Position numbers and translations under genes: made by a program. Below are positions 1 to 21,151 of a stretch of DNA of 64,000 bases, in pieces; position 1 is the stretch's first letter, and every line of letters starts with the position of its first letter. The notes beneath the pieces were generated by a model, which did not search any database, was not told the origin of the DNA, and saw only the letters and a list, made by a program, of their open reading frames with translations. This DNA is from Patescibacteria group bacterium UBA6017 (GTDB lineage: Bacteria; Patescibacteriota; Saccharimonadia; UBA4664): contig DIZX01000016.1 in the NCBI GenBank assembly GCA_002429485.1, forward strand, positions 14,889 through 78,888, in the 5' to 3' direction.

Positions 1-161
1 TCCGAGTGCGGGACTACCCCGATCTCGATCCGGATCTGGTGGGTGAGATCTTGAGCGTGCAGCACCAGTTCGCTGAGGACCGGGCAGAGGCCCGCAAACG
101 CACCGAGCAGCTCATTAACCGCTGGGCCGCCAGCCAACCCGATCCAAGGGCGACCGACTGA
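1..161 (+). CDS. 3' end of an upstream gene cut off by the window edge. Frame 3 is open from position 3 to the TGA at 159-161, which overlaps the ATG of the next gene (TGATG).
   Basis: Frame 3 is open from the window edge to 161. Its translated end is ...RVRDYPDLDPDLVGEILSVQHQFAEDRAEARKRTEQLINRWAASQPDPRATD*. The stop overlaps the start of the ATPase gene, which is typical of translational coupling. The high-GC codon usage matches the neighbouring genes. Confidence 0.4.
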   Translation, partial: RVRDYPDLDPDLVGEILSVQHQFAEDRAEARKRTEQLINRWAASQPDPRATD

Positions 162-2101
162 TGCTCACCCTTGATGGCCTGACGATCCAGGACTTCGGTC
201 CGTATCGCGGACGGCAAGAAATTAAATTCACTCGTGACCGCGGGGTATACATCTTGTACGGGCCGAATGGTCGCGGAAAGACGACGCTGCATAACGCCTT
301 TCGGTACGCGCTGTATGGCGAGATTCTTGGTCGCCGCCGAGCCGAGCAGGCCCGCGAGTTGGCCAACTCTGAGGCTCGCAAGCAGGCGGGCTTCGGCTCG
401 TTTGAGACGACGTTGGACTTTGGGCACCAGGGCGCCCGCTACCGACTGACCCGGCGGTACGACGAGCGCGAGAAACCCCACGAGTTGACGCTCCTGGAAC
501 GCGATGGCGTGCCTATGTCTCAGGATGACTCCGAGAAAGCGCTCCAGGTCATTGCGCCACACTCGGTAAGCCAGTTCTTCCTTTTCGACGGCGAGTTGCT
601 CCGTCAGTACGAAAACCTGCTTGACCGGGACAGTGAAGAAGGGGCTGCTCTGGAGCAATCGATCGAGCGCGTCCTCGGTATCCCGATCGTTGGCAATGCC
701 AAGGCTGACGTCACCGGAGTGTGGCGGCTCGCCGAGAAACAGATGGCCGAGCAGTACGCCGCCCACGATGAGACCCGGCGCATGGGCCTATCGCTCAATG
801 AGGCCCAGGAAGTACGCGCTCGGCTGCAGGAGGGTCACGACGAGATTGCCTTGCGGATCGATACAGCGAAGGAGCGTGTTGCCGAGCTAGAAGGCATGCT
901 GCGCGAGCAGCAGAAGGCCGAGCGTTTGCTAGGCAATCTCGATCGGCTCCGTACCCAGCAAGCGGACTTAGAACTTCGTGAAAAGGAGGGCGTCGATGCT
1001 CTGAACGAGCTGTCCGGCGATCTGTGGAAGGCGGTGCTGGCGCAGTCGGCAGCCGATCGGTTGGTGTCGGTCGACGCCGAGGTGCAGATAGCAGAGACTG
1101 ACCTGCGGTCCGTTGCAGCTGCGGTCAGAGACCTGGCACATCTGCAAGCCGAGCATGACTGCCCCGTCTGTCGCCGTGATGTACCCGAGGACCTACGCAA
1201 TTCGCTGATCGCAAGCTTGGAGGCAACTGCCTCGGACGCCCATCACGAGGCCGTTGACGCTCGCCTTGATCGGGCACGTAGTAAGCGCCGGACGCTGCAG
1301 GTCCTCGCTTCTGAGGACGCGCGCCTCGTCGTAGAGCGGGATCGGAACCTCCGCTCGCTGCGGTTGGAGCGGCAGGAAGTGCGGGAGGACATCGCAGGTC
1401 TCGAGCAGCAGTTGTCCGAGATCGGCGAGGACGAGTTGCGCGCCCTTACCGGTGAGCGAGATCAGCGGCAGGCGCAGATTCTGCGCGACAAGGAACGGCT
1501 TGAGGACAGTGGCGTCAAGCTCCGTGAGCAGGAGCTGGTGATAGAGGATCTGAAGCGCCGCTTGCGCAAGCAGCCCGTGCGGCCCGACCACACAATCGAG
1601 GTGAAGGACCAAGTGAGTCAGGCCTTGATGGGTCTCTTTGGCGGGGCGATTGACGCCTACCGCGTCAAGCTGCGTCGCCGGGTCGAAGAGCGGGCATCGG
1701 AAATCTTCCGCCAGCTCGCTTCCGAGCCGGACTACGTGGGGCTGCGCATCACTGATCGGTATGGGTTGGAGATCATTGACTCCGACGGCGAAGTGGTCAG
1801 GCGATCAGCCGGCTACGAGCACCTGGTTGCCCTGTCCCTGATCGCGGCCCTGCAGGACAGTGCGGCGGTGCGCGGCCCGGTGATCATGGACTACCCGTTT
1901 GGACGGCTTGACACCGACAACACGGCGCATGTCGTGGCAGCCCTGCCGCGTATGGCCCGCCAGGTCATTCTGCTGTCGTTCGATGGAGAGTTCGATCGCC
2001 ACGCGGCTCTGACTGCGCTCGGCAGCAATCTGGTGGCCGAGTATGAGCTAGAGCGCGTCACCTCGAAGCACACTCGCATCCAGCCTCGGAGGACCATCTG
2101 A
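161..2101 (+). CDS. SMC/Rad50-family ABC-type ATPase with a central CxxC zinc-hook and short coiled coils (DndD / LmuB / SbcC-like). Probably a defense-system ATPase.
   Basis: N-terminal Walker A GPNGRGKTT. FFLFDGELL motif. A long coiled-coil region rich in heptad E/R/L. Mid-protein hook HDCPVCRRDVPEDL. C-terminal signature-like SAGYEHLVALSLIAAL, Walker B PVIMDYPFGRLD and LLSFDGEF. TGATG overlap with the genes on both sides. Confidence 0.8.
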   Translation: MLTLDGLTIQDFGPYRGRQEIKFTRDRGVYILYGPNGRGKTTLHNAFRYALYGEILGRRRAEQARELANSEARKQAGFGSFETTLDFGHQGARYRLTRRYDEREKPHELTLLERDGVPMSQDDSEKALQVIAPHSVSQFFLFDGELLRQYENLLDRDSEEGAALEQSIERVLGIPIVGNAKADVTGVWRLAEKQMAEQYAAHDETRRMGLSLNEAQEVRARLQEGHDEIALRIDTAKERVAELEGMLREQQKAERLLGNLDRLRTQQADLELREKEGVDALNELSGDLWKAVLAQSAADRLVSVDAEVQIAETDLRSVAAAVRDLAHLQAEHDCPVCRRDVPEDLRNSLIASLEATASDAHHEAVDARLDRARSKRRTLQVLASEDARLVVERDRNLRSLRLERQEVREDIAGLEQQLSEIGEDELRALTGERDQRQAQILRDKERLEDSGVKLREQELVIEDLKRRLRKQPVRPDHTIEVKDQVSQALMGLFGGAIDAYRVKLRRRVEERASEIFRQLASEPDYVGLRITDRYGLEIIDSDGEVVRRSAGYEHLVALSLIAALQDSAAVRGPVIMDYPFGRLDTDNTAHVVAALPRMARQVILLSFDGEFDRHAALTALGSNLVAEYELERVTSKHTRIQPRRTI

Positions 2102-2484
2102 TGGCCGATCTCAAGAACATCGCTCTGACCATCGAGGCAACCCAGACTGCCACCGACCTCAAGCATTGGCTCGGCATCGTCGAGCAGATGGACCGCATCC
2201 GGCTAGGCTTCGCTTACGCGGTCAGGAACAGCCTGGACCTCACGCGCGATGACACTTTCGGCACCCGGGGCGGTAGTAACTACGACACCGGCGGCCTCGA
2301 CCAGGACGGCCTGATGGCCGAGACCGTAAAGATCTACTATCCGGACCCGGACGTCGCCGCCGAGCCCTACCGCGCCGTTGAGACGCTCATGAATAAGGGC
2401 CTGCGCCTACTCGGGGAGCATTGGCAGCAGGGCCTCATCGGCAGTGTCGGCGATTTGATGGCCAGCGCGGCCGACGCGGAATAG
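2101..2484 (+). CDS. Small acidic partner protein (127 aa) of the zinc-hook ATPase. Function unknown.
   Basis: Its start overlaps the ATPase stop codon (TGATG at 2099-2103). Codon usage matches the ATPase gene. A promoter-like AT-rich gap follows. No motif was recognised. Confidence 0.55.
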   Translation: MADLKNIALTIEATQTATDLKHWLGIVEQMDRIRLGFAYAVRNSLDLTRDDTFGTRGGSNYDTGGLDQDGLMAETVKIYYPDPDVAAEPYRAVETLMNKGLRLLGEHWQQGLIGSVGDLMASAADAE

Positions 2485-2624
2485 AGTCACTAATTGTGCG
2501 GATTTGTATCCAATAGCACAATCTTGACTTATCCACAGGCCTTTGAAAGAATAAGCGCTAGCGACATTGTCAGCCGGAACTACTCGCAACACTTTATCAC
2601 CGAGCTAATCGTAAGGGCGCACAC
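2485..2624 (+). promoter_or_regulatory. AT-rich intergenic region, probably holding the promoter of the four-gene Qat-like operon.
   Basis: This is the only AT-rich gap in a stretch that is otherwise about 62% GC. It contains TTGACT ... TATCCA-like hexamers and ends just before the ATG at 2625. Confidence 0.3.
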
Positions 2625-4409
2625 ATGACCGGCGAGACGAGAACTCCGGACCTTCACCTCTGGTCCGATGAACCGGCAGTAACAGATTTACTTTCCTTCA
2701 GCGCGATCGCTGACACGGTCGTTGACGCCCTCTTCGACGAGAACCTCAATCCTGTGGCGCTTGGCATTTCTGGCGCCTGGGGCAGTGGCAAGACCACCGT
2801 ACTCAACCTGATCGACCAGCGCATCAACGCTCGATCTACAGATCAGCAGACAATCGTTGTGGTCCGCGCCGACCCGTGGCGCTATGACCCGACCAAGGGC
2901 CCGAAGGAGAGCCTGATTGTTGCCGTACTGACGGCACTGCAGGGCGAATTTAAGGGCTCAGATGCGGCCCAGAAGTCCGCCGGTGAGGCGCTCAAGAGGC
3001 TTGCGAAGCGGGTCAACTGGTCGAAAGCCATCAAGATGGCAGCGACCACGGCCCTAACCGCGCAACTTCCTTCGCTGGATGCAGTTATGGGCTTGGTCAG
3101 TGACGAGCCAGAAACGCTCGGTTCCGAGAAGGGCATGGACCAGTTCCGCGAGGAGTTCGAGGCGCTCCTAAAAGAAGAGGCGCTCGCCCACGTCATGCAA
3201 GTGGTCGTCCTGGTGGACGATCTAGACCGCTGCTTGCCAGAAACCGTCGTCGAGACGCTAGAAGCCATCCGGTTGTTCTTGTCGGCGGAGAACATGTCAT
3301 TCGTCATCGCCGCGGATGAGGCCCGAGTTGCAGAGGCGATCCAGCAAAAGCTGCAGATGCCCGACCCGAGCGACGGCACGGAGAGCATTGCCAGCCTTTA
3401 CTTGCACAAGATTGTGCAGACGACGGTGCCGTTGCCAGCCCTCAGCTACTTCGATACTCGCGCCTACCTTTTCTTGCTGCTCGCCCGAATGCAGGTTGAA
3501 ACGGATGTGTTTGGCGCGCTGGTTACCTCGTGCGACGTTCTTCGTATCGACGCCGGAAGCCTTGACGACCTCGCGCTACCAGAGGGTATTGATCTCTCGT
3601 CTCCTATGGCCACAGCCTCAAGACTCACGCCTATTCTCTACGAAAAGTTCCAGGGCAATCCTCGACGCATCAAGCGCTTCATGAACGACCTATATGTTCG
3701 ACAGTCCGTGGCCGCGAGACGGGGTCACAAGCTAGAGCCCGACGCCATCGCCAAGTTGATGGTGATCGAGCGGCTATTCCCGGCTGACTTCGGCGTCCTA
3801 ATGGACTGGCTCGCGTCCGGCAATCTGCGCGGCAAACTAGATGCGCTGCAATTATTCACGAAGGGGGAGCAGCGCGAGAAGGGAAAAGCCGAAGAAACCG
3901 AATTTTCCGGCACGATGTTGCGCTGGGCCAAGCTCCCACCCGAATTCGATACGGCTATGGTCTCGGGATATCTGACACTGGCGGCTGCGTTCCAGGGCCG
4001 TCTCCTAGTAGATGAGTCGCTGTCAGAGTCTCTGCGCGACCTCGCCGCTGCACTGACCTCGAGTTCGCAGGTCGAACGCAGTTCAGTGAAGGACGGTGAG
4101 ATTAAGGCGCTCCCGCCCGGAGACGTCGCGGAGCTGCTCGCCCACTTAGGTAGACGCATGCGCGACGACTCTTCGATCCAGCTCCCGACGGTGAACGCGA
4201 TCGTATCGATCGCTACCCTGCACCCTAGCGAGTTGGGTCGAGCTCAGCGCGCACTGTTGATGTTGCCTGGCAACGATGTTCGGTCATCCAGTGTCCTTAT
4301 CTTCAAAGACCTGACCGCCGACTACGATGATGTGCTCGAGAGCTGGTCGAAGAGCTCGGACGCCACGACGAAGCGGGCGATCTTGTCCGTGCGCAGCAGG
4401 AAGGCCTGA
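2625..4409 (+). CDS. qatA: KAP-family P-loop NTPase, first gene of a Qat-type defense operon (QatA-like).
   Basis: Walker A GISGAWGSGKTT close to the N-terminus. Walker B-like VVVLVDDLDRC. Size of 594 aa. It is followed, with start/stop overlaps, by a Gly-rich protein, a QueC-like protein and a TatD-like protein. Confidence 0.75.
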   Translation: MTGETRTPDLHLWSDEPAVTDLLSFSAIADTVVDALFDENLNPVALGISGAWGSGKTTVLNLIDQRINARSTDQQTIVVVRADPWRYDPTKGPKESLIVAVLTALQGEFKGSDAAQKSAGEALKRLAKRVNWSKAIKMAATTALTAQLPSLDAVMGLVSDEPETLGSEKGMDQFREEFEALLKEEALAHVMQVVVLVDDLDRCLPETVVETLEAIRLFLSAENMSFVIAADEARVAEAIQQKLQMPDPSDGTESIASLYLHKIVQTTVPLPALSYFDTRAYLFLLLARMQVETDVFGALVTSCDVLRIDAGSLDDLALPEGIDLSSPMATASRLTPILYEKFQGNPRRIKRFMNDLYVRQSVAARRGHKLEPDAIAKLMVIERLFPADFGVLMDWLASGNLRGKLDALQLFTKGEQREKGKAEETEFSGTMLRWAKLPPEFDTAMVSGYLTLAAAFQGRLLVDESLSESLRDLAAALTSSSQVERSSVKDGEIKALPPGDVAELLAHLGRRMRDDSSIQLPTVNAIVSIATLHPSELGRAQRALLMLPGNDVRSSSVLIFKDLTADYDDVLESWSKSSDATTKRAILSVRSRKA

Positions 4410-5227
4410 TGGGAACCAGCGGAGCCTTCAAAGGAAGCGGCGGAAAGGATGCCGGCAGCCTCCGGGACGCCATCAGTGATTGGCTGGGAGGTGCCGACGA
4501 GGCTCAACAGGGTCAAGCCGACACGACCACAACAGACCAGCCGGCCGAACCCGACCACTTGAACCCCAACGCCCTCGCCCCCGCGGCTCGACTCTGGCTG
4601 CGAGGACCATCGGGCGGTTCCAAGGGTTCGGGAAGCGGAGGCGGGGGTGCAACCAGTGGGGGCGGTGGCTCCGCGGGTGGCGGTAGGTCATCTGGTGGTG
4701 TCCAGCGGACAGTCGGACGCGTTTCCGGACCTGCCGGGCGTGCAGGCGCACTGGCACGTGCCTTTGCGACGGGTGACAGCCCGGCGCTAGAAGAAGCGGG
4801 CCTTAACTACGATGAACTTCGCGCGCTCAATGATCCGCTTGAAGTGGGTCGCAAGATCACCGAGGTGGCTTTTGAAGGCCAACCTGACGGCAGTATCGAA
4901 GACGGCGAGGCACGCTTAATCGTAGCTGAGCTCGTCTCGTGGATCATGGATGCGCCTGACGGTGAGCGGCCCAGTCCCGACCAGATTGTCCGCTACTCAA
5001 TCGAACTTATGATTGCTAAAGCAGCCCTTACCGAAGTGGGCGATACGATCCGTAAGCAATCCGACCCCGTCAAGCGCCAAGAAGCTGAAGCAGAAGTGCG
5101 CCGCGGAGCCAAGGTCCTGGCAGGAAAGCTAGATCTTGATGGAGTAGGACCTAGTGCATCGGACATCGCTCGTAGTATCGAGACAAGTGTGCAGCAGCTG
5201 GTCGATATTCACGGGGACCCGACATGA
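4409..5227 (+). CDS. qatB: Glycine-rich protein of the Qat-type operon (QatB-like).
   Basis: Its ATG overlaps the qatA stop (ATGA). Starts MGTSGAFKGSGG and carries a long Gly/Ser tract (GGSKGSGSGGGGATSGGGGSAGGGRSSGG). The C-terminal half is helical. The next gene starts inside its last codons. Confidence 0.65.
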   Translation: MGTSGAFKGSGGKDAGSLRDAISDWLGGADEAQQGQADTTTTDQPAEPDHLNPNALAPAARLWLRGPSGGSKGSGSGGGGATSGGGGSAGGGRSSGGVQRTVGRVSGPAGRAGALARAFATGDSPALEEAGLNYDELRALNDPLEVGRKITEVAFEGQPDGSIEDGEARLIVAELVSWIMDAPDGERPSPDQIVRYSIELMIAKAALTEVGDTIRKQSDPVKRQEAEAEVRRGAKVLAGKLDLDGVGPSASDIARSIETSVQQLVDIHGDPT

Positions 5228-6501
5228 CCCGACTTGCTCTCGTCATGGATCGAACGCGGATACCGGCCGACACGGACGAGGTCTTCCTTTGGGATGGGGG
5301 AGCCGACCAAAGCTTCAAGACTGGGCTCACTCCCACACTTGCAGAACTAGGCGACGTACCCCCGCTCAATGCGGACGCTGTGAGGATCGCGCTTACAGCC
5401 TACGCGGCCGACCACAGCGTGAAGCGGGAACGTGGCGGTTCCAACTGGAATCGTCGGACTTTGGATCTGCTGGTACCGGTCAGTGATCCCGACGTCTGGG
5501 CAGGTGCGGCCACGGAGCTCATCGATGCTCTCAATTTCCTCACCGGTGACAATTGGAGCCTAAGATTCGTCCAGCATGAAGTTGAGGACAACCAGCACCA
5601 GCTTCTCGCCGATGCACCAGCCCGCGTCGTTTTACTCAGCGGGGGTGCCGATTCGGGAACGGGTGCGGTCATCTCTGCGAGTTCTCTTACACTCAACGAG
5701 TCGCACATTCTCGTATCTCATTCGAGTTCGGGCGCAACCAGCGGTGCGCAGAGAGCCGTCCATGACCGCCTCGAAGCTCTCTTCCCGGGAAAGCAGCCTA
5801 TCCATCGCCAAATCTTCATAGGTCGGGCCAAGAAACGAATCGATGGTACGAACTATCCAGACGAACCATCCAGCCGATCGAGATCATTCTTATTTCTGAC
5901 GCTTGGTCTGGCGGCCGCTGCCCGGTCGGGAGCCACCCTCTGGATCCCAGAGAACGGGTTTGCATCACTAAACCCTCCGCTCGGTCCTGAGCGACTGGGT
6001 GCACTCTCCACTAGGACAACGCACCCATGGTTCCTTTGGAGGCTCCAACAGGCCCTCTCGAAAGTCGGCGCGCACGCCGATCTCGAGAATCCCTTCCAAC
6101 TCGAGACGAAAGGCGAGATGTTTACGCGCGCCTCGGGTGTCCTCGGGAAAGATGGCGCGTCCGCGTTTCTCAGCACTACAAACTCGTGTTCTCACACCGA
6201 CCAGAACTACCAAGGCGTGCCGAGTGGAACTCACTGTGGTGTCTGCTTCGGATGCATCGTCAGGCGCGCTTCCTTCAAGGCCTCCGGGCTCCATGACCAG
6301 ACCCGGTACTTGAGTGCCGAGAGCCGCTACGCCACGTATACCGCGAGCCATTCCATCGTGGAAGCGGTCCGGGACTTCGTAACCCGTGGAATCGACGACG
6401 CCACTGTGCTTGCTATGCCCCTGCCTCCAGGCCTGCTAGCTGGCGGAGCAAAGGAGCTGTGCGTACGCGGCTTGAATGAAATGGAGTCCTACCTGGCATG
6501 A
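5224..6501 (+). CDS. qatC: QueC-like PP-loop ATPase (7-cyano-7-deazaguanine synthase family), QatC-like.
   Basis: PP-loop motif VVLLSGGADSGTGAV (SGGxDS). C-terminal Zn-binding-type cluster HCGVCFGCIVRR (CxxCxxC). Overlaps both of its neighbours. Confidence 0.8.
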   Translation: MTRLALVMDRTRIPADTDEVFLWDGGADQSFKTGLTPTLAELGDVPPLNADAVRIALTAYAADHSVKRERGGSNWNRRTLDLLVPVSDPDVWAGAATELIDALNFLTGDNWSLRFVQHEVEDNQHQLLADAPARVVLLSGGADSGTGAVISASSLTLNESHILVSHSSSGATSGAQRAVHDRLEALFPGKQPIHRQIFIGRAKKRIDGTNYPDEPSSRSRSFLFLTLGLAAAARSGATLWIPENGFASLNPPLGPERLGALSTRTTHPWFLWRLQQALSKVGAHADLENPFQLETKGEMFTRASGVLGKDGASAFLSTTNSCSHTDQNYQGVPSGTHCGVCFGCIVRRASFKASGLHDQTRYLSAESRYATYTASHSIVEAVRDFVTRGIDDATVLAMPLPPGLLAGGAKELCVRGLNEMESYLA

Positions 6502-7274
6502 AGTTGCCACCACTCGACACGCATGCACACGTGGCTCTCGAGGTCCCGACGCGGGACCTCGAGAGCCTCGGCGCAGCGGTGTTGATCGCTACGCGCAGCG
6601 CAGACGAGTTTGAGAGGGTTAGAGCACGGCATGACCTGGTGAGTGTTTGGGGGCTCGGGTGCCACCCTTCACTGGTTGGTGTCCAGCGATCGTTCGATAG
6701 CGAAAAATTTCGCGCCTTACTTGAATTCACACCATACGTCGCCGAAGTTGGGCTTGATGGGGATTCTCGGGTTCCGCTGGAAAATCAGACCGAAACGCTG
6801 AAAGCTATCCTTGATTGCGTTCGACAAATGCCCAGGGTCGTTTCACTGCACAGCTTCCGCGCGACCACGGACCTACTTAGGGTCCTTGATGTTCAGGATG
6901 GCACGTCGGCCCTCATCCTTCATTGGTGGCTTGGCACGAGGGAGGAGACGACGTGGGCGCTCGAGCTCGGCTGTTACTTCTCGGTCAACTACTCGATGAT
7001 TCGCTCGACGAGCCAATGGCGACAAATTCCACTCGACCGTTTACTTGTCGAGACCGACCATCCATCGGGAGACCGGTTCTCGAGCAGCCCGCGGCAGCCG
7101 GGCCGCGTTCAGGACGTCGAGCGGGCTCTCGGAAAACTCCACGGCCTAAGTGTTGAGAAGGTCCGACTCCAACTCTGGCAGAACTTCGCAGCACTGACAT
7201 CGGCGACCAGTACAGCGCAGATGCTGCCCATCCCCCTACGCAAGATGATCGCGTTCGCACAACAGTCCCAGTAG
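6498..7274 (+). CDS. qatD: TatD-family metal-dependent hydrolase/nuclease, QatD-like.
   Basis: N-terminal LDTHAHV (the TatD DxHxH metal site). HWWLGT motif. C-terminal LLVETDHPS (the TatD ETDxP motif). Its start overlaps the qatC stop. Confidence 0.8.
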   Translation: MKLPPLDTHAHVALEVPTRDLESLGAAVLIATRSADEFERVRARHDLVSVWGLGCHPSLVGVQRSFDSEKFRALLEFTPYVAEVGLDGDSRVPLENQTETLKAILDCVRQMPRVVSLHSFRATTDLLRVLDVQDGTSALILHWWLGTREETTWALELGCYFSVNYSMIRSTSQWRQIPLDRLLVETDHPSGDRFSSSPRQPGRVQDVERALGKLHGLSVEKVRLQLWQNFAALTSATSTAQMLPIPLRKMIAFAQQSQ

Positions 7275-7291
7275 ACACCTGATTGATTTTC

Positions 7292-7301
7292 GGGGGGGGG
7301 G
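7292..7301. repeat. Homopolymeric G10 tract in the gap between the convergent qatD and HTH genes.
   Basis: The sequence reads directly ttttcggggggggggtaacc. Confidence 0.9.
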
Positions 7302-7396
7302 TAACCTCTTGGCATTCTTAACCGGATACCCCCATGCCCAATCAAGAAGACATGTAGCTAGATCTGACGCGCCGAAGGCATGCGTCTACTTGATCT

Positions 7397-7846
7397 TCAT
7401 GTCCCTTTTTGATCGTGTGGTTGACGCATGACCACGCCCCGCCCACGTAACGCCCTCCAGACCGTGGCGCCAGCGACCTCGAACCGTTCGCCCAGCCGGG
7501 CCAGCGACCACCCCTCGCCGTAGAGGCGGACGGCCCGTTCGACCTGCCCTGGGTCGAGGCCTCGTTGTCGAGTCGGCACTCCGGCTCGCCTGATGATCTC
7601 GGAGACCGTCACTCGGTGGATGCCGTGGGCGGCGGCAAGATCCTTCATGTTCGCGCCCGCTACGTACGCCAGGACAATCTCGGTCTGATCGGCGTACGCC
7701 AGTCGGCGCTGTGGCGTGACGTTCAGGCGGACAGCTCCGGAGCTGCTCGGGCCCGGCAACTTCGCCCGGTCTGCCATTGCCTCGTCCGCAAGCGTGACTA
7801 TTTGGGCCGCGAGGGGGTTCGATAGACAACCCCTCAGTTCCACCAT
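7397..7846 (-). mobile_element. Helix-turn-helix protein resembling the N-terminal DNA-binding part of an IS transposase or resolvase (orfA-like). There is no catalytic DDE partner, so it is probably a mobile-element remnant at the edge of the island.
   Basis: Two HTH-like segments: NMKDLAAAHGIHRVTVSEIIRRAG and GWSLARLGERFEVAGATVWRALRGRG. No adjacent ORF with a DDE/recombinase domain. It sits exactly where GC content changes from ~62% to ~40%. Confidence 0.45.
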
Positions 7847-7925
7847 TTAGTTCTTTTTACTTTCTCCGAGTTTTCATTAGCTATTCATCTAGAGTCGTGA
7901 TGCTCTTTTTGGTATACTGCCAGGC

Positions 7926-8495
7926 ATGAATCTTATCTTCTCTACCGGTAACTCGGACAAATTCCATACAGCACATAGGGTACTTGAAGAAGCAGGCATA
8001 ACGCTTACACAAGAAAAACTCGATATAGACGAAATCCAGGCCGAGGAGGGCAATGCAATTATCCTAGACAAGTCTGCGAAGGCTTATAGCCTATTATGCC
8101 AGCCAGTAGTAGTCAGTGATGATTCGTGGTCAATCCCAGGCCTGGGCGGCTTCCCCGGACCTTACATGAAATCGATTAATGCGTGGTTCAAGGCGGAAGA
8201 TTTCGAACACCTCACTCGCCCGCTCGAAGACCGTCGAGTCTTTCTGACCAACCGGCTCGCCTACAATGATGGTCATCAGATAAAACTCTTTCACAATCAT
8301 CGTGAGGGAATTCTGCTCAAAGCAAGCCGCGGCCACAGTAGTCATCTGAGCCATCAATTTATTGTGATGGAGGGCGATAATGGGCTGAGTCAGGCCGAGG
8401 CTTACAATCAAGGCGTCGACCAAAACAACCTCGAAAGAGCCGCCATCTGGAGGCAACTAGAGGGTTGGCTAAGGTCTAACATAAAAGCTTCATAG
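7926..8495 (+). CDS. Non-canonical purine NTP pyrophosphatase (Ham1/ITPase/RdgB family).
   Basis: N-terminal STGNSDKFHTA (the TGNxxK motif). VVVSDDSW (the DDSG-like motif). About 190 aa. AT-rich codon usage. Confidence 0.7.
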   Translation: MNLIFSTGNSDKFHTAHRVLEEAGITLTQEKLDIDEIQAEEGNAIILDKSAKAYSLLCQPVVVSDDSWSIPGLGGFPGPYMKSINAWFKAEDFEHLTRPLEDRRVFLTNRLAYNDGHQIKLFHNHREGILLKASRGHSSHLSHQFIVMEGDNGLSQAEAYNQGVDQNNLERAAIWRQLEGWLRSNIKAS

Positions 8496-8504
8496 AACCT
8501 CTAA

Positions 8505-8543
8505 GCGAATCGCAGTGCTAACAGCGCCCACAATGCTCCACCA
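8505..8543. repeat. Copy 1 of a ~39-bp intergenic repeat ending in ATGCTCCACCA (tRNA-3'-end-like).
   Basis: gcgaatcgcagtgctaacagcgcccacaatgctccacca aligns with the copies at 9400-9438 and 9946-9984. Confidence 0.7.
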
Positions 8544-8598
8544 GTTTAGTTTCGTATATTTTTTCGTCCGGCGATAAGCACTTGGTATAATCGAAAGT

Positions 8599-9381
8599 AT
8601 GAATAATCCCGACTCAGACCTCCTTCAACTACTGAAGTCCGCACCAGAGCGCATCGGCTGGGATTTTAGTCGTATAAAAGATGACGTTGAGCCTCGCCCA
8701 TGGGATTATCTATCGATTGTCAAAGCCTGGTTATCTAAGTCTGACCACGTTCTAGACTTAGATACAGGTGGGGGTGAAAAATTTATTGCCTTAGCCGACT
8801 GCTACAAGTCTGGCTTTGCAACCGACTCGTCCGCCGAGCAGATTCAAGTTTGCAATCAAAATCTAGCCGTATCATTACGGAATAATATTCAGTTTGTGCA
8901 GTCCGACGCCCGCAAACTTACTGCGTTTGATGATGCCTCTTTCGATAAAGTCATCAATCGTCACGGCGCATTCTCATTGGCTGAGGCTTATAGAGTTCTC
9001 AAGCCAGGTGGGATATTTATTACTCAACAAGTTGGCGAAAAGAATACCTTGAACGTTTACGGCGCCTTTGGGTACTCGGACGCCACCGCCTATTGGCGTT
9101 CACGCGATGTCGAGACGGAGACTTGGTCGAGCATTGTAGAAGGGCTGATAAAGTCGGATTTCGAAGTGGTAGCGAAAGGCGAGTACAATTTAGATTATTA
9201 CTTCCTTGGCAACGAGAGTTTTATTTTTTGGCTGAAAGCGATCGAGATACCGTATCCTTTCGAACCGGAACAGCACGTTGAAATCATAAAAAAGTTCATT
9301 GCTGAAAACCAAACTGAACGGGGCATTAAAACCAATGAGCAGAGGCATCTGCTCATTTTACGGAAACCTAGGCATAACTAG
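8599..9381 (+). CDS. Class I SAM-dependent methyltransferase.
   Basis: Motif I VLDLDTGGGE. Acidic motif II. LKPGGIF motif. A -10-like TATAAT lies 13 nt upstream. Confidence 0.7.
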   Translation: MNNPDSDLLQLLKSAPERIGWDFSRIKDDVEPRPWDYLSIVKAWLSKSDHVLDLDTGGGEKFIALADCYKSGFATDSSAEQIQVCNQNLAVSLRNNIQFVQSDARKLTAFDDASFDKVINRHGAFSLAEAYRVLKPGGIFITQQVGEKNTLNVYGAFGYSDATAYWRSRDVETETWSSIVEGLIKSDFEVVAKGEYNLDYYFLGNESFIFWLKAIEIPYPFEPEQHVEIIKKFIAENQTERGIKTNEQRHLLILRKPRHN

Positions 9382-9399
9382 CCCAACCCCTGCATCTGA

Positions 9400-9438
9400 G
9401 CGTATCGTAGTTCGAACAACGTTAACCATGCTCCACCA
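9400..9438. repeat. Copy 2 of the ~39-bp repeat ending in ATGCTCCACCA.
   Basis: gcgtatcgtagttcgaacaacgttaaccatgctccacca is about 80% identical to copy 3. Confidence 0.7.
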
Positions 9439-9482
9439 TATAGCCATATTTACTGCGTTTCAGCGCAATATAGCATTACATC

Positions 9483-9502
9483 AAGAGCCGTGAGGCTCTT
9501 TT
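9483..9502 (+). terminator. Hairpin GAGCC-GTGA-GGCTC followed by a T-run. Intrinsic terminator module, shared with the copy at 9997-10022.
   Basis: aagagccgtgaggctcttttggtat: perfect 5-6 bp GC-rich stem, GTGA loop, T-run. Confidence 0.55.
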
Positions 9503-9551
9503 GGTATATCTCAATTTTAGAATCGAAAAATAACTTTGCTAGAATAAATGC

Positions 9552-9896
9552 ATGAAGTTTGTAAATCAATCCCAAGCAGTCGAATTCCGTAACGGTGATA
9601 CCTGTGTCGCATTAGAGTATCAGCTAAATGACGCCGATATCAACGGAGCGGTAATTCGACTATCTGGGCGCTATCCAGAGCAAGGTTTTGCTGTTAATGA
9701 AGTATCGAAAGAACTGGTGTATGTCGTCAAAGGCCAAGGGACGCTTACCGTTGGTGAGACTAGTACTCGTTTAAGTGAAGGTGACATGGCATTGCTTATG
9801 CCTGGCGAGAAGTATTTCTTCGATGGTGAGCTTGTAATGATGATGCCCTGCGCCCCAGCCTGGACGCCGCAGCAGCATAAACTGGTTAGCGATTAA
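9552..9896 (+). CDS. Cupin-domain protein.
   Basis: Small beta-barrel protein with a Gx5HxHx...E-like region (RLSGRYPEQGFAVNE ... LMPGEKYFFDGE). 114 aa. Confidence 0.5.
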   Translation: MKFVNQSQAVEFRNGDTCVALEYQLNDADINGAVIRLSGRYPEQGFAVNEVSKELVYVVKGQGTLTVGETSTRLSEGDMALLMPGEKYFFDGELVMMMPCAPAWTPQQHKLVSD

Positions 9897-19843: not shown

Positions 19844-21151
19844 TTACGAGCGAATCTCGAAATCTGCTCCCAAGGCTTTGAGCTTGTCCCACAGATTTTC
19901 GTAACCCCGTTCGAGGTGGTGAATGCCGGTGAGCGTCGTTTCGCCGTCGGCTACCAGAGCAGCAATCACCTGTGCCATGCCGGCTCGGATATCGGGGATC
20001 TCCACAGCTGCACCGTGCAGCGGCGTAGCCCCCATGATCACGGCCGAGTGCCGCTGTGATCGGTTGCGGAACCGGCAGGGCAGCTCGCCGAGGCATTTGG
20101 CGAATACACCGATGTCGGCTCCCATGCGGCGCAGATCTTCGGTGTAGCCGAACCGGTCTTCGTAGACCGTCTCATGCACCACCGATATGCCCTTGGCTTG
20201 GGTGAGTGTAACCACGGTTGGCTGCTGCCAGTCGGTCGCGAACCCCGGGTAGGTGTCGGTCTCGAGCTCGATACCGACCAGTCCGCCATTCCCGCGCCGG
20301 AAACGTATCCATTCGGGGGTTACTTCGAAGTCGCCCCCGATACGCTTAATGGTGTTCAGGAATGTCACGAGTTCGCTCTGGCGGGCGCCTTCCACGATGA
20401 TTTCACCGCCGGTCGCGATAGCCAGGTTGGCAAACGATGCCGCCTCCAGCCGGTCGGGTATGACTTCGTAGCTTACTCCGTGCAGACGCTTTACGCCGTC
20501 GATCGTGAGAGTACGGTTGGCGCCAAACTCAATAATTGCACCCATCTGCTGCAAAAATTTCACGATGTCGACAATTTCCGGCTCCACGGCGGCATTCTCA
20601 ATCCGGGTGCGGCCCGAGGCTAAGACGCCGGCCAAAATAATCGTCTCGGTCGCGCCGATGCTAGGATAGGGGAGTACAATGGTGGCTCCGCGCAGCCCGC
20701 CCTTTGGTGCACGCGCCTTGTAGCTGCCTTCCGCCTCCTCGATCACGGCTCCCATTTGTATCAGAGCCTGAAGGTGGAAATCTACCGGCCTGGGCCCGAT
20801 TGCGTCGCCGCCTACTCGCGGTACCTCCGCCTCACCCGAACGATGCAGCAAGGGCGCAATCGCCAGGATCGAAATTCGGTTGGCCCGGGTCATTTTAGCC
20901 ACCTTAGTGCTGACGATTTTCGGGGTCTGGATCACAATTCGGCTGCCCTCCCGACGCACGTGCGCACCAATTGCAGCGCAAATCTCGGACGTAATCGATA
21001 TCTCCTCAATTTGCGGACAGTTGTCGAGAGTAACCTCTTCATCGGTCAAGAGGCTGGCAACCATCATCTTTGATGCTGCATTTTTTGCTCCGGCTACTCG
21101 AACGCGGCCCGACAGCGGACGTCCCCCTCGGATATGAAGTGTTTTGGTCAC
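19844..21151 (-). CDS. murA: UDP-N-acetylglucosamine 1-carboxyvinyltransferase.
   Basis: N-terminal RIRGGRPLSGRVRVAGAKNA. Length 435 aa. Typical MurA/EPSP-synthase-fold conservation throughout. Confidence 0.9.
   Translation of the reverse strand: MTKTLHIRGGRPLSGRVRVAGAKNAASKMMVASLLTDEEVTLDNCPQIEEISITSEICAAIGAHVRREGSRIVIQTPKIVSTKVAKMTRANRISILAIAPLLHRSGEAEVPRVGGDAIGPRPVDFHLQALIQMGAVIEEAEGSYKARAPKGGLRGATIVLPYPSIGATETIILAGVLASGRTRIENAAVEPEIVDIVKFLQQMGAIIEFGANRTLTIDGVKRLHGVSYEVIPDRLEAASFANLAIATGGEIIVEGARQSELVTFLNTIKRIGGDFEVTPEWIRFRRGNGGLVGIELETDTYPGFATDWQQPTVVTLTQAKGISVVHETVYEDRFGYTEDLRRMGADIGVFAKCLGELPCRFRNRSQRHSAVIMGATPLHGAAVEIPDIRAGMAQVIAALVADGETTLTGIHHLERGYENLWDKLKALGADFEIRS

What the first reader, a model, noticed from the sequence alone, without database searches (positions are those of the whole stretch)
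2485..7274. Complete four-gene Qat-type defense operon (KAP NTPase, Gly-rich protein, QueC-like, TatD-like)
Four consecutive genes have overlapping stop/start codons (ATGA at 4409, 5224 and 6498). They encode, in order: a KAP P-loop NTPase (GISGAWGSGKTT); a protein starting MG... with a long Gly/Ser tract; a QueC-family PP-loop enzyme (SGGADS plus CxxCxxC); and a TatD-family hydrolase (DTHAH ... ETDHP). This is the published QatABCD architecture (QueC-like associated with ATPase and TatD). From recollection, recent work suggests QueC-like proteins in such systems conjugate a 7-deazaguanine-type moiety onto a partner protein, and the Gly-rich MG-initiated QatB here would be the natural acceptor. 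The operon sits in a ~62% GC island, which is foreign to the ~52% GC host backbone.
Basis: partly seen in the sequence, partly recalled or inferred. Interest (0 to 1): 0.65.

Follow-up and report, generated by a model that had tools for sequence, protein, structure and literature searches.

The report
Divergent QatABCD anti-phage operon
This is an intact four-gene QatABCD anti-phage defence operon of a divergent, actinobacterial type that standard annotation models only partly recognise, and it sits in a horizontally acquired defence island in the chromosome of a Saccharimonadia (candidate phyla radiation) bacterium.

Summary
Four intact, co-directional, overlapping genes at 2625-7274 encode a KAP NTPase (QatA), an MGTS-initiated Gly-rich protein (QatB), a QueC-like PP-loop enzyme (QatC) and a TatD-type nuclease (QatD).

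QatA, QatC and QatD hit PADLOC and NCBIfam Qat models. QatC matches crystallised QatC (E~1e-46) and has every QatC-specific motif, but none of the canonical QueC catalytic motifs. QatB escapes all curated models. It is linked to canonical QatB by its N-terminal motif, by 28/28 synteny, by a bridging sequence set (hhalign 98.8%, E 1e-16) and by NCBIfam QatB hits on intermediates.

Corrections:
- qatA starts at 2625, not 2485.
- The qatA/qatB junction is TGATG, not ATGA.
- GC is about 59-60% against 54%, not 62% against 52%.

Added context:
- The cassette belongs to an Actinomycetota-centred Qat clade that falls below NCBIfam cut-offs and is absent from a published Qat survey.
- It lies next to a PbeABCD/methylase system in a ~13 kb high-GC island.
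- The host backbone is Candidatus Saccharimonadia, whose known hosts are Actinobacteria, so host-to-epibiont transfer is likely.

Verdict: a new member of a known system, of moderate interest.

The parts
2485..2624 (+). Intergenic gap upstream of qatA (45.7% GC) with one sigma-70-like promoter match at 2524-2552 (TTGACT-17-AAGAAT, TG extension). It probably holds the operon's own promoter.
   Evidence: Only a consensus match (2 sites found against 1.5 expected in the scanned region), so function is inferred, not shown.
2625..4409 (+). qatA: KAP-family P-loop NTPase, 594 aa, with Walker A at 50-57, Walker B at 194-201 and a Qat-type C-terminal domain.
   Evidence: Pfam KAP_NTPase 1.5e-46. PADLOC QatA 2e-77. 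NCBIfam QatA 289 bits, below the 600 cut-off. Motifs. 49-79% identical in 28 syntenic loci.
4409..5227 (+). qatB: 272 aa. It has the N-terminal MGTS motif (Gly2), a largely disordered tail to about residue 98 that includes a Gly/Ser tract (66-98), and an all-alpha C-terminal domain (99-268). It is the presumed protein substrate of QatC.
   Evidence: No curated model hit and no PDB sequence or fold hit. Family alignment with invariant G2, S4, F7, G9, W25. AF2 model. hhalign to canonical QatB E 8e-5. Bridging set: 10/45 hit NCBIfam QatB and hhalign 98.8%, E 1.3e-16. 28/28 synteny.
5224..6501 (+). qatC: QueC-like PP-loop ATP pyrophosphatase, 425 aa. Motifs: SGGADS 139-144, TRTTHP 263-268, RSRSFLF, PENG, PFQLETK, and a Cys4 zinc site C322/C338/C341/C344 followed by RR.
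   Evidence: PADLOC QatC 6e-78. NCBIfam QatC 279.9 bits against a 280 cut-off. PDB QatC 9zee_B 1.8e-46 and 9vlk_A 6.2e-46 with motifs aligned. Motif positions and the absence of canonical QueC motifs.
6498..7274 (+). qatD: TatD-family (type II, HxH) metal-dependent nuclease, 258 aa. Metal ligands are H9, H11, E83, H118, H142 and D187.
   Evidence: Pfam TatD_DNase 2.4e-29. PADLOC QatD 1e-37. NCBIfam QatD 138 bits, below the 230 cut-off. Aligns to the A. baumannii QatD crystal sequence 9xsn_A at 5.9e-20 with all ligands conserved.
6533..6567 (+). Perfect 16-bp inverted repeat (3-nt loop) inside the 5' end of qatD. It is specific to this locus and its role is unknown.
   Evidence: z -5.26, 0/200 shuffles; absent from 29 relatives.

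Best explanation
The region is a complete QatABCD anti-phage defence operon of a divergent lineage centred on Actinomycetota, carried on a horizontally acquired island.

How it most likely works, taken from experiments on Pseudomonas, E. coli and Acinetobacter homologues and inferred for this locus:
1. The four genes are transcribed from a promoter in the 140-bp gap upstream of qatA and are translationally coupled through overlapping stop/start codons.
2. QatB loses Met1, which exposes Gly2 of the conserved MGTS motif.
3. [quoted passage not shown]
4. QatC, a PP-loop ATP pyrophosphatase, adenylates a carboxylate substrate and transfers it to the Gly2 amine. The substrate is 7-carboxy-7-deazaguanine in the only positive mass-spectrometry report. 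Two other groups regard it as unidentified.
5. The modified QatBC complex is the core of defence. QatA (an oligomeric DNA-binding KAP NTPase) and QatD (an NTP-inhibited 3'-5' exonuclease/AP endonuclease that binds QatB weakly) broaden the range of phages restricted.

Shown here: gene content, order, integrity, catalytic and recognition motifs, homology of all four proteins to Qat proteins, and conservation of the cassette.

Inferred: expression, complex formation, the modification, and the phage phenotype in this organism.
For: - Family matches for QatA, QatC and QatD.
- QatC is 1e-46 to crystallised QatC, with SGGxDS, the invariant T-x-T (TRTTHP) and the Cys4 site aligned.
- All QatC-cluster motifs listed in PMC13329287 are present and the canonical QueC motifs are absent.
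- QatD metal ligands align with 9XSN.
- QatB has the MGTS N-terminus that was shown to be essential, invariant G2 across its family, and a disordered tail plus helical domain in the AF2 model.
- QatB is collinear with canonical QatB by hhalign (E 8e-5).
- Transitive link for QatB: 10/45 distant family members hit NCBIfam QatB and nothing else, and the bridging set against canonical QatB gives 98.8%, E 1.3e-16. The canonical set was validated against PDB QatB 9zee_A and 9vll_A.
- 28/28 related loci keep the A-B-C-D order.
- All four ORFs are full length relative to homologues.
Against: - QatB has no direct hit to any curated QatB model (best E 1.7), to PDB QatB by sequence or to any fold in the PDB copy searched. 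That copy ends on 2026-04-08 and probably predates the QatBC entries.
- NCBIfam scores are below equivalog cut-offs for QatA (289/600), QatD (138/230) and, marginally, QatC (279.9/280).
- The QatB N-terminal recognition segment differs from the canonical one: LRDxIxxWL with W25, instead of PLIPSW with W18. The tail is longer, about 98 residues against the reported 30-90.
- No experiment exists for this clade.
- The chemistry of the QatC reaction is itself unsettled.
- Whether a reduced Saccharimonadia genome can supply a 7-deazaguanine precursor was not tested.
Confidence: 0.88

Rival explanations
1. The QueC-like gene is a genuine queuosine/preQ0 biosynthesis enzyme and the cluster is metabolic, with TatD as a housekeeping nuclease, rather than a defence system.
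For: Pfam QueC hits the C-terminal part weakly (2.9e-5, 24 bits). A Mycobacterium plasmid homologue is annotated 'queuosine biosynthesis protein queC'.
Against: - The canonical QueC catalytic motifs YxQxHxxE, VPxRN and YPDC are absent, and the QatC-specific motifs are all present.
- The best matches are QatC models and QatC crystal structures.
- The neighbours are QatA, QatB and QatD in 28/28 loci.
- There is no other PP-loop ORF in the window.
- E. coli QatC does not complement a queC deletion (PMC13329287).
Confidence: 0.02
2. Qat here is functionally coupled to the adjacent PbeABCD/methylase module as one composite modification-dependent system, rather than being an independent cassette.
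For: The genes are co-directional and only 140 bp apart, within one high-GC island.
Against: - None of 28 related Qat cassettes has PbeC or PbeD nearby.
- The two modules differ in GC: 63-67% against 57-64%.
- The AT-rich gap carries a promoter-like site.
- The Pbe/CxC-DndE-methylase-MTaX1 arrangement is a described self-contained system (PMC10853773).
- qatBC alone suffices for defence in tested homologues.
Confidence: 0.06
3. The cassette is an inactive relic or passenger in the reduced Saccharimonadia genome: acquired but not functional there, for example for lack of substrate or expression.
For: - The origin is foreign.
- A locus-specific 16-bp perfect hairpin lies inside qatD.
- A strain variant has a ~110-nt disruption in neighbouring pbeD.
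- Supply of a 7-deazaguanine precursor in the host is unverified.
Against: - All four ORFs are intact and full length with every catalytic residue conserved.
- The same protein sequences recur in several samples and assemblies.
- Reduced genomes tend to purge useless DNA (general knowledge).
Confidence: 0.1
4. The island is an assembly chimera: actinobacterial DNA mis-joined into a Saccharimonadia contig.
For: There are abrupt GC shifts at both edges, and the relatives are all Actinomycetota.
Against: - Backbone flanks the island on both sides within a 231-kb contig.
- The same junctions occur in an independent ENA assembly (34 kb).
- A Logan contig crosses the right junction, from qatA to the methyltransferase.
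Confidence: 0.03

Closest known systems
QatABCD of Pseudomonas aeruginosa / E. coli / Acinetobacter baumannii (Gao et al. 2020 system; structures 9ZEE, 9VLK/9VLL, 9XSN)
   Same: - Identical four-gene order and translational coupling.
- QatA is a KAP NTPase.
- QatB has the MGTS N-terminus, a disordered tail and a helical domain.
- QatC has SGGxDS, T-x-T-HP, the Cys4 zinc site, and the long loop (NPPLGPERLGALSTRTTHP against NVPLDPRRLGACSTRTTHP) that packs on QatB.
- QatD has the HxH type II TatD metal ligands.
   Different: - Only about 30-35% identity for QatC.
- QatB is undetectable by curated models and by direct PDB sequence search.
- The QatB recognition segment is LRDxIxxWL (W25) rather than PLIPSW (W18), and a Gly/Ser-rich linker makes the tail about 98 residues long.
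- QatC is about 25-40 residues shorter.
- The clade is centred on Actinomycetota, which a 631-sequence QatD survey does not list.
- This copy sits in a Saccharimonadia chromosome.
Type IV CBASS Cap9-CdnD deazaguanylation (PDB 9NTO)
   Same: A QueC-family PP-loop enzyme acts on the Gly2 amine of a partner protein that starts MG(G/T)S and presents it on a flexible N-terminal tail.
   Different: - There is no CD-NTase, no Cap10/TGT-like gene and no CBASS effector here.
- QatC is about twice the size of Cap9.
- QatC replaces the CDG-recognising Tyr/Asp pair with two Thr (T263, T265 here).
- QatB is unrelated to CD-NTases.
Canonical QueC (7-cyano-7-deazaguanine synthase, PF06508 cluster 1)
   Same: Rossmann-like PP-loop fold, the SGGxDS pyrophosphate loop and a C-terminal Cys4 zinc site.
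   Different: - It lacks YxQxHxxE, VPxRN and YPDC.
- It has N- and C-terminal extensions.
- It is not next to queD, queE or queF.
- Tested QatC does not complement a queC deletion.
PbeABCD / CxC ABC-ATPase-DndE system with cytosine methylase and MTaX1 (neighbour, not part of Qat)
   Same: It occupies the same island immediately upstream. It is a defence module with a DndD-like ATPase (window 161-2101) and a DndE-like small protein (2101-2484).
   Different: The proteins are unrelated, it is a separate transcription unit, and it never accompanies Qat in 28 related loci.

Membership tests
QatABCD defence system | Four co-directional adjacent genes in the order KAP NTPase - QatB - QueC-like - TatD-like | tested here: met
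   ORFs 2625-4409, 4409-5227, 5224-6501 and 6498-7274 have overlapping stops and starts. The same order is found in 28/28 related loci.
QatABCD defence system | QatA: KAP-family P-loop NTPase with intact Walker A/B and a Qat-type C-terminal region | tested here: met
   Pfam KAP_NTPase 1.5e-46. PADLOC QatA 2e-77 covering residues 154-583. GAWGSGKT and VVLVDDLD.
QatABCD defence system | QatC: QueC-family PP-loop enzyme with SGGxDS, a Cys4 zinc site, invariant Thr-x-Thr in place of the QueC Tyr/Asp pair, and N- and C-terminal extensions | tested here: met
   Aligned to 9zee_B and 9vlk_A at about 1e-46 over residues 38-385. SGGADS 139-144, TRTTHP 263-268, C322/C338/C341/C344 followed by RR, RSRSFLF, PENG, PFQLETK. 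425 aa against about 220 aa for QueC.
QatABCD defence system | QatB: conserved extreme N-terminal M-G-T-S (Gly2 acceptor) on a disordered tail, followed by an all-alpha domain homologous to crystallised QatB | tested here: met
   - MGTSGAF N-terminus, with G2 invariant in 36/36 family members.
- AF2 model: tail to about residue 98, then 8 helices with pLDDT 80-95.
- Homology is indirect but consistent: hhalign to canonical QatB E 8e-5; the bridging set is 98.8%, E 1.3e-16; 10/45 bridging sequences hit NCBIfam QatB.
- Direct model and PDB hits are absent.
QatABCD defence system | QatD: TatD-family TIM-barrel nuclease with the type II HxH motif and a binuclear metal site | tested here: met
   Pfam TatD_DNase 2.4e-29. 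PADLOC QatD 1e-37. H9, H11, E83, H118, H142 and D187 align with H8, H10, E86, H124 and H148 of 9XSN.
QatABCD defence system | (Operational, not biological) proteins score above the NCBIfam equivalog cut-offs used by PGAP | tested here: not met
   QatA 289.2/600, QatC 279.9/280, QatD 138.1/230, QatB no hit. Accordingly, the same cassette on the Arthrobacter sp. U41 plasmid is annotated 'P-loop NTPase fold / hypothetical / hypothetical / TatD family hydrolase'. This reflects the sequence range those models cover, not a missing feature. Even some proteobacterial QatA and QatB genes are left unnamed.
QatABCD defence system | QatB and QatC form a 1:1 complex with the QatB N-terminus in the QatC active site | not testable with these tools
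   No multimer prediction is available. The only indirect support is that the QatC loop which contacts QatB in the crystal is conserved.
QatABCD defence system | Confers phage resistance that depends on QatB Gly2 and the QatC PP-loop | not testable with these tools
   This needs experiments. It is shown only for the P. aeruginosa and E. coli systems.
Canonical QueC (queuosine/preQ0 biosynthesis) | Catalytic signature YxQxHxxE, VPxRN, YPDC | tested here: not met
   None of the three motifs is present in the 425-aa protein.
Canonical QueC (queuosine/preQ0 biosynthesis) | Genomic association with queD, queE, queF or folE | tested here: not met
   The neighbours are QatA, QatB, QatD, an HTH gene, a Ham1-like gene and the Pbe genes. 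QatC is the only SGGxDS ORF in the 64-kb window. The whole genome was not examined.
Type IV CBASS (Cap9/Cap10/CD-NTase) | The QueC-like gene is adjacent to a CD-NTase and a TGT-like Cap10 | tested here: not met
   No such domains were found in any neighbouring gene.

The most novel reading that the evidence does not exclude
The ~13-kb Pbe/methylase + Qat defence island was transferred from an actinobacterial host lineage (Micrococcales-like; the closest relative is Agromyces) into its Saccharimonadia epibiont. The Qat module works there against phages shared by the two partners, even though the reduced genome has no 7-deazaguanine (CDG) pathway of its own. That would mean the first substrate of QatC in this clade is not CDG, or is scavenged from the host cell.
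Probability: 0.15. Interest if true: 0.7.

Novelty: new member of a known kind. Interest (0 to 1): 0.4.

Why it matters
Qat is an actively studied defence system whose chemistry is still unresolved: the first substrate of QatC is disputed, and the step after QatB modification is unknown.

This locus matters in three ways:
- It represents an Actinomycetota-centred clade that is about 30-35% identical to the studied systems. It keeps every catalytic and recognition residue that mutagenesis has shown to be essential, while the QatB tail and helical domain have diverged beyond the reach of current models. That contrast separates what is indispensable (Gly2/MGTS, the T-x-T-HP loop, SGGxDS, the Cys4 site) from what is free to vary.
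- It shows that current annotation (PGAP, and probably DefenseFinder/PADLOC calls that require QatB) under-counts Qat in Actinomycetota.
- Its location in a Saccharimonadia chromosome is a concrete candidate case of defence-island transfer from host to epibiont. It offers a natural test of whether Qat needs an endogenous 7-deazaguanine supply.

Tried and rejected
- Island boundaries: no flanking direct repeats, integrase or adjacent tRNA were found. The boundaries therefore rest on composition alone.
- Donor of the Pbe module: tblastn of PbeC against plasmids gave nothing closer than 28%, so nothing can be said.
- Source organism by exact-cluster look-up: no names were attached. The host was inferred from LeuS and MurA instead.
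- A possible functional link between Qat and the adjacent Ham1-like NTP pyrophosphatase was rejected. That gene has backbone-like or lower GC (48.6%) and never accompanies Qat in the relatives.
- The hairpin in qatD as a repeat element was rejected: it is a single copy and arose in place.
- Literature searches found no statement on queuosine or 7-deazaguanine metabolism in Saccharibacteria, and only indirect hints for Actinobacteria. The question of CDG supply stays open.

Full report
OBSERVATION. The window holds four intact, co-directional ORFs at 2625-4409 (594 aa), 4409-5227 (272 aa), 5224-6501 (425 aa) and 6498-7274 (258 aa). The first available start of the first gene is ATG 2625, which matches the full length of homologues. 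Bases 2485-2624 are a 45.7% GC gap with one sigma-70-like match, TTGACT-17-AAGAAT, at 2524-2552 (a consensus match only). The junctions are TGATG (1-nt overlap) for the first pair and ATGA (4-nt overlap) for the other two. All quoted motifs are present at defined residues. GC is 59.2% for the stated interval and 60.5% for 1-7900, against 54.3% for the rest of the window and 48.9% for the adjoining 4 kb.

IDENTITY OF QatA, QatC AND QatD. Pfam gives KAP_NTPase (1.5e-46), QueC (weak, C-terminal part only) and TatD_DNase (2.4e-29). PADLOC gives QatA 2e-77, QatC 6e-78 and QatD 1e-37. In NCBIfam the best and essentially only relevant hits are the Qat equivalogs, but all fall below cut-off: QatA 289/600, QatC 279.9/280, QatD 138/230.

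QatC matches the two crystallised QatC sequences (9zee_B 1.8e-46, 9vlk_A 6.2e-46), with SGGxDS, the STRTTHP loop and the cysteine cluster in register. It carries every motif that defines the QatC cluster in PMC13329287:
- AAD
- RxRxxxF
- ExG
- HP
- P(x)4TK
- CGxCxxC..RR

It lacks the canonical QueC motifs YxQxHxxE, VPxRN and YPDC, and it is the only SGGxDS-containing ORF in the 64 kb. QatD aligns with the A. baumannii QatD crystal sequence 9xsn_A (5.9e-20). The HxH pair, the bridging Glu and the two further His ligands are all conserved.

IDENTITY OF QatB. This was the one uncertain component. It has no hit in Pfam, PADLOC (best E 1.7) or NCBIfam. It has no hit to any PDB sequence, either alone or as a family profile. 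Its AF2 model (mean pLDDT 72.7; residues 99-268 mostly 80-95) finds no fold match in a PDB copy that ends on 2026-04-08, which probably predates release of the QatBC structures. Five independent lines nevertheless identify it as QatB.

1. It begins MGTS. This is the motif reported as highly conserved and essential in QatB: G2D abolishes defence, Met1 is removed, and Gly2 lies in the QatC active site. G2, S4, F7, G9 and W25 are invariant in 36 family members.
2. The predicted architecture is a largely disordered tail followed by an all-alpha domain, as in the crystal structures.
3. In 28 of 28 genomic loci that encode a relative, the gene lies between QatA-like and QatC/QatD-like genes on the same strand.
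4. A canonical QatB alignment was built from annotated plasmid operons and validated against PDB QatB chains (9vll_A 5e-96, 9zee_A 4e-67). It aligns collinearly with the window's family over 226 columns (hhalign E 8.3e-5, probability 61%).
5. An exhaustive HMM search with the family profile found 214 representatives. Of 45 distant full-length ones, 10 hit NCBIfam QatB (best 3e-8) and no other family, and some hit PADLOC QatB. As a profile, these 45 match canonical QatB at 98.8% probability, E 1.3e-16, across the helical domain.

I therefore regard QatB homology as established through intermediates.

It differs from canonical QatB in two ways:
- The segment after the MGTS motif reads GxFxGSGGKDAxxLRDxIxxWL (predicted helix 13-27, W25) instead of xSSxGPxxxSPLIPSW.
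- A Gly/Ser-rich linker (66-98, 79% G+S) brings the tail to about 98 residues, at or above the reported range of 30-90.

LINEAGE. Relatives of all four proteins are almost exclusively from Actinomycetota: Agromyces, Leifsonella, Arthrobacter, Nocardia, Gordonia, Rhodococcus, Microbacterium and others. The closest cassette is in Agromyces sp. ISL-38 (A 79%, B 76%, C 74%, D 69% identity). A neighbour-joining QatC tree (no support values) places the window copy as sister to Agromyces. It sits within a Micrococcales subclade, inside an otherwise actinobacterial clade that is well separated from the proteobacterial and Deinococcus QatC.

Public annotation misses this clade:
- The same cassette on an Arthrobacter plasmid is annotated as 'P-loop NTPase fold protein', two 'hypothetical protein' genes and 'TatD family hydrolase'.
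- A Mycobacterium plasmid copy is called 'queuosine biosynthesis protein queC'.
- A survey of 631 QatD sequences lists Pseudomonadota 91.7%, Bacillota 6.8% and three minor phyla, but no Actinomycetota.
- A survey of the actinobacterial antiviral arsenal does not mention Qat in its main text.

CONTEXT. The window starts inside another operon. The ORF at 161-2101 is a DndD-like ABC ATPase with a CxxC zinc hook (PADLOC 'PbeC' 4e-192). The ORF at 2101-2484 is a 127-aa protein in the position of its DndE-like partner. The longer source contig (JGI 3300011992 Ga0120146_1000002, 231 kb) carries the following upstream:
- a divergently transcribed type II N4/N6 methyltransferase
- an MTaX1-domain gene
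- a helicase, 'PbeA' (7e-193)
- a 70-aa gene

This is exactly the CxC-ABC ATPase/DndE (PbeABCD) + methylase + MTaX1 arrangement described in PMC10853773. None of the 28 related Qat loci has Pbe genes, so the adjacency is local: a two-system defence island, not a composite system.

By composition the island runs from about L043:4,700 to 17,750, which ends at window ~7,900. The methylase/Pbe part is 61-67% GC and the Qat part 57-64%, against 51-57% and 44-49% in the flanks. It includes a convergent 66% GC HTH gene at 7397-7846. No integrase, flanking repeats or adjacent tRNA were found.

HOST. The backbone carries murA, murF, leuS, leuA, smc, ABC exporters and MMPL transporters. The closest named relatives of LeuS and MurA are all Candidatus Saccharimonadia, Saccharibacteria or Patescibacteria. 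MurA is 81% identical to a Saccharimonadia MAG protein. Actinobacteria are the experimentally established hosts of Saccharibacteria, and some phages are targeted by CRISPR spacers of both partners (PMC10746230). Three observations make transfer from an actinobacterial lineage into the epibiont the most economical reading (my estimate, about 0.75):
- the GC island
- the actinobacterial nesting of QatC
- both junctions recurring in independent assemblies

Direction and donor are inferred, not proven. CPR genomes are reported to carry few defence systems per genome but at high density, and a few defence islands have been reported in them (PMC12259885). So the general phenomenon is not new.

MECHANISM. 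By homology with the studied systems, the steps are as follows.
- QatB and QatC form a 1:1 complex that is the minimal defence unit.
- QatC is an essential ATP-dependent PP-loop enzyme. Its CDG-recognising Tyr/Asp pair is replaced by two invariant Thr, here T263 and T265.
- The Met-processed QatB N-terminus sits in the QatC active site.
- One group detected an NDG-modified GTSKAY peptide at low level. Two other groups could not reconstitute the reaction and consider the first substrate unidentified.
- QatA binds DNA and oligomerises.
- QatD is a Mg-dependent 3'-5' exonuclease and Ca-dependent AP endonuclease that is inhibited by physiological NTP levels and binds QatB weakly.

For this locus, only the sequence prerequisites of these steps are shown. 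Expression, complex formation, modification and phenotype are inferred.

VERDICT. The locus is a new, divergent member of a known system. The points of interest beyond that are the poorly annotated actinobacterial Qat clade with a divergent QatB, and the presence of the cassette, together with a Pbe/methylase system, in a Saccharimonadia chromosome.

Noticed in passing
window 1-2484 (continues upstream on L043:4,974-12,324): A second defence module lies immediately upstream of Qat. Within the window it comprises the end of a 70-aa gene (stop at 159-161), a DndD-like CxC ABC ATPase 'PbeC' (161-2101; PADLOC 4e-192; CPVC zinc hook) and a 127-aa DndE-position protein (2101-2484; no model hit). On the longer contig these are preceded by a PbeA helicase, an MTaX1 gene and a divergent type II N4/N6 methyltransferase. 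This matches the published CxC-DndE/PbeABCD-with-methylase arrangement (PMC10853773).
   Followed up: partly
window 12000-64000 (e.g. leuS 23321-26119, murA 19844-21151): The chromosomal backbone belongs to Candidatus Saccharimonadia (CPR/Patescibacteria) according to LeuS and MurA relatives, whereas the Qat cassette's relatives are Actinomycetota, the known hosts of Saccharibacteria. This points to host-to-epibiont transfer of a ~13-kb defence island.
   Followed up: partly
window 6533-6567: A perfect 16-bp inverted repeat with a 3-nt loop lies inside qatD codons 12-24 (RNA fold z -5.3). It is absent from 29 related cassettes. The left arm has been rewritten to the exact reverse complement of the conserved right arm, as expected from a template-switch mutation. 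Any function is unknown.
   Followed up: partly
window 7397-7846 (- strand): A 149-aa HTH protein (66% GC) is convergent with qatD and lies inside the high-GC island. Weak homologues sit in the same convergent position directly after qatD in 2 of 28 related loci (L016 and L021). A further weak hit in L036 lies about 3.7 kb downstream. It may be a regulator or a remnant of a mobile element.
   Followed up: partly
window 7926-9896: Directly after the island come a Ham1/RdgB-like non-canonical purine NTP pyrophosphatase, a SAM methyltransferase and a cupin. Their GC is only 45-49%, below the backbone mean of 54%. None of them co-occurs with Qat in the relatives. This may be a separate low-GC insertion.
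   Followed up: partly
L004:391-500 (JGI 3300013758 contig), equivalent to window ~2220-2240: A strain variant from another sample carries a ~110-nt insertion or duplication inside the DndE-position gene (pbeD), which splits it. Its Qat genes are 99.96% identical at the DNA level.
   Followed up: no
L040 (JACEFY010000001.1, 'Stenotrophomonas maltophilia strain P13'): This is the only non-actinobacterial genome carrying this Qat clade. Its QatC nests beside Microbacterium in the tree, so it is either contamination of the assembly or a recent transfer.
   Followed up: no
L043:1-4379 (upstream of the island, outside the window): A giant ORF of more than 1,800 aa with no Pfam hit borders the island on the left. 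Large unannotated proteins of this kind are typical of CPR genomes.
   Followed up: no
L009, L012, L013 (Vibrio, Xenorhabdus, Moraxella plasmids): Even in proteobacterial operons where PGAP names qatC and qatD, the QatA and QatB genes are left as 'P-loop NTPase fold protein' and 'hypothetical protein'. QatA and QatB model coverage is therefore generally incomplete, not only for this clade.
   Followed up: no
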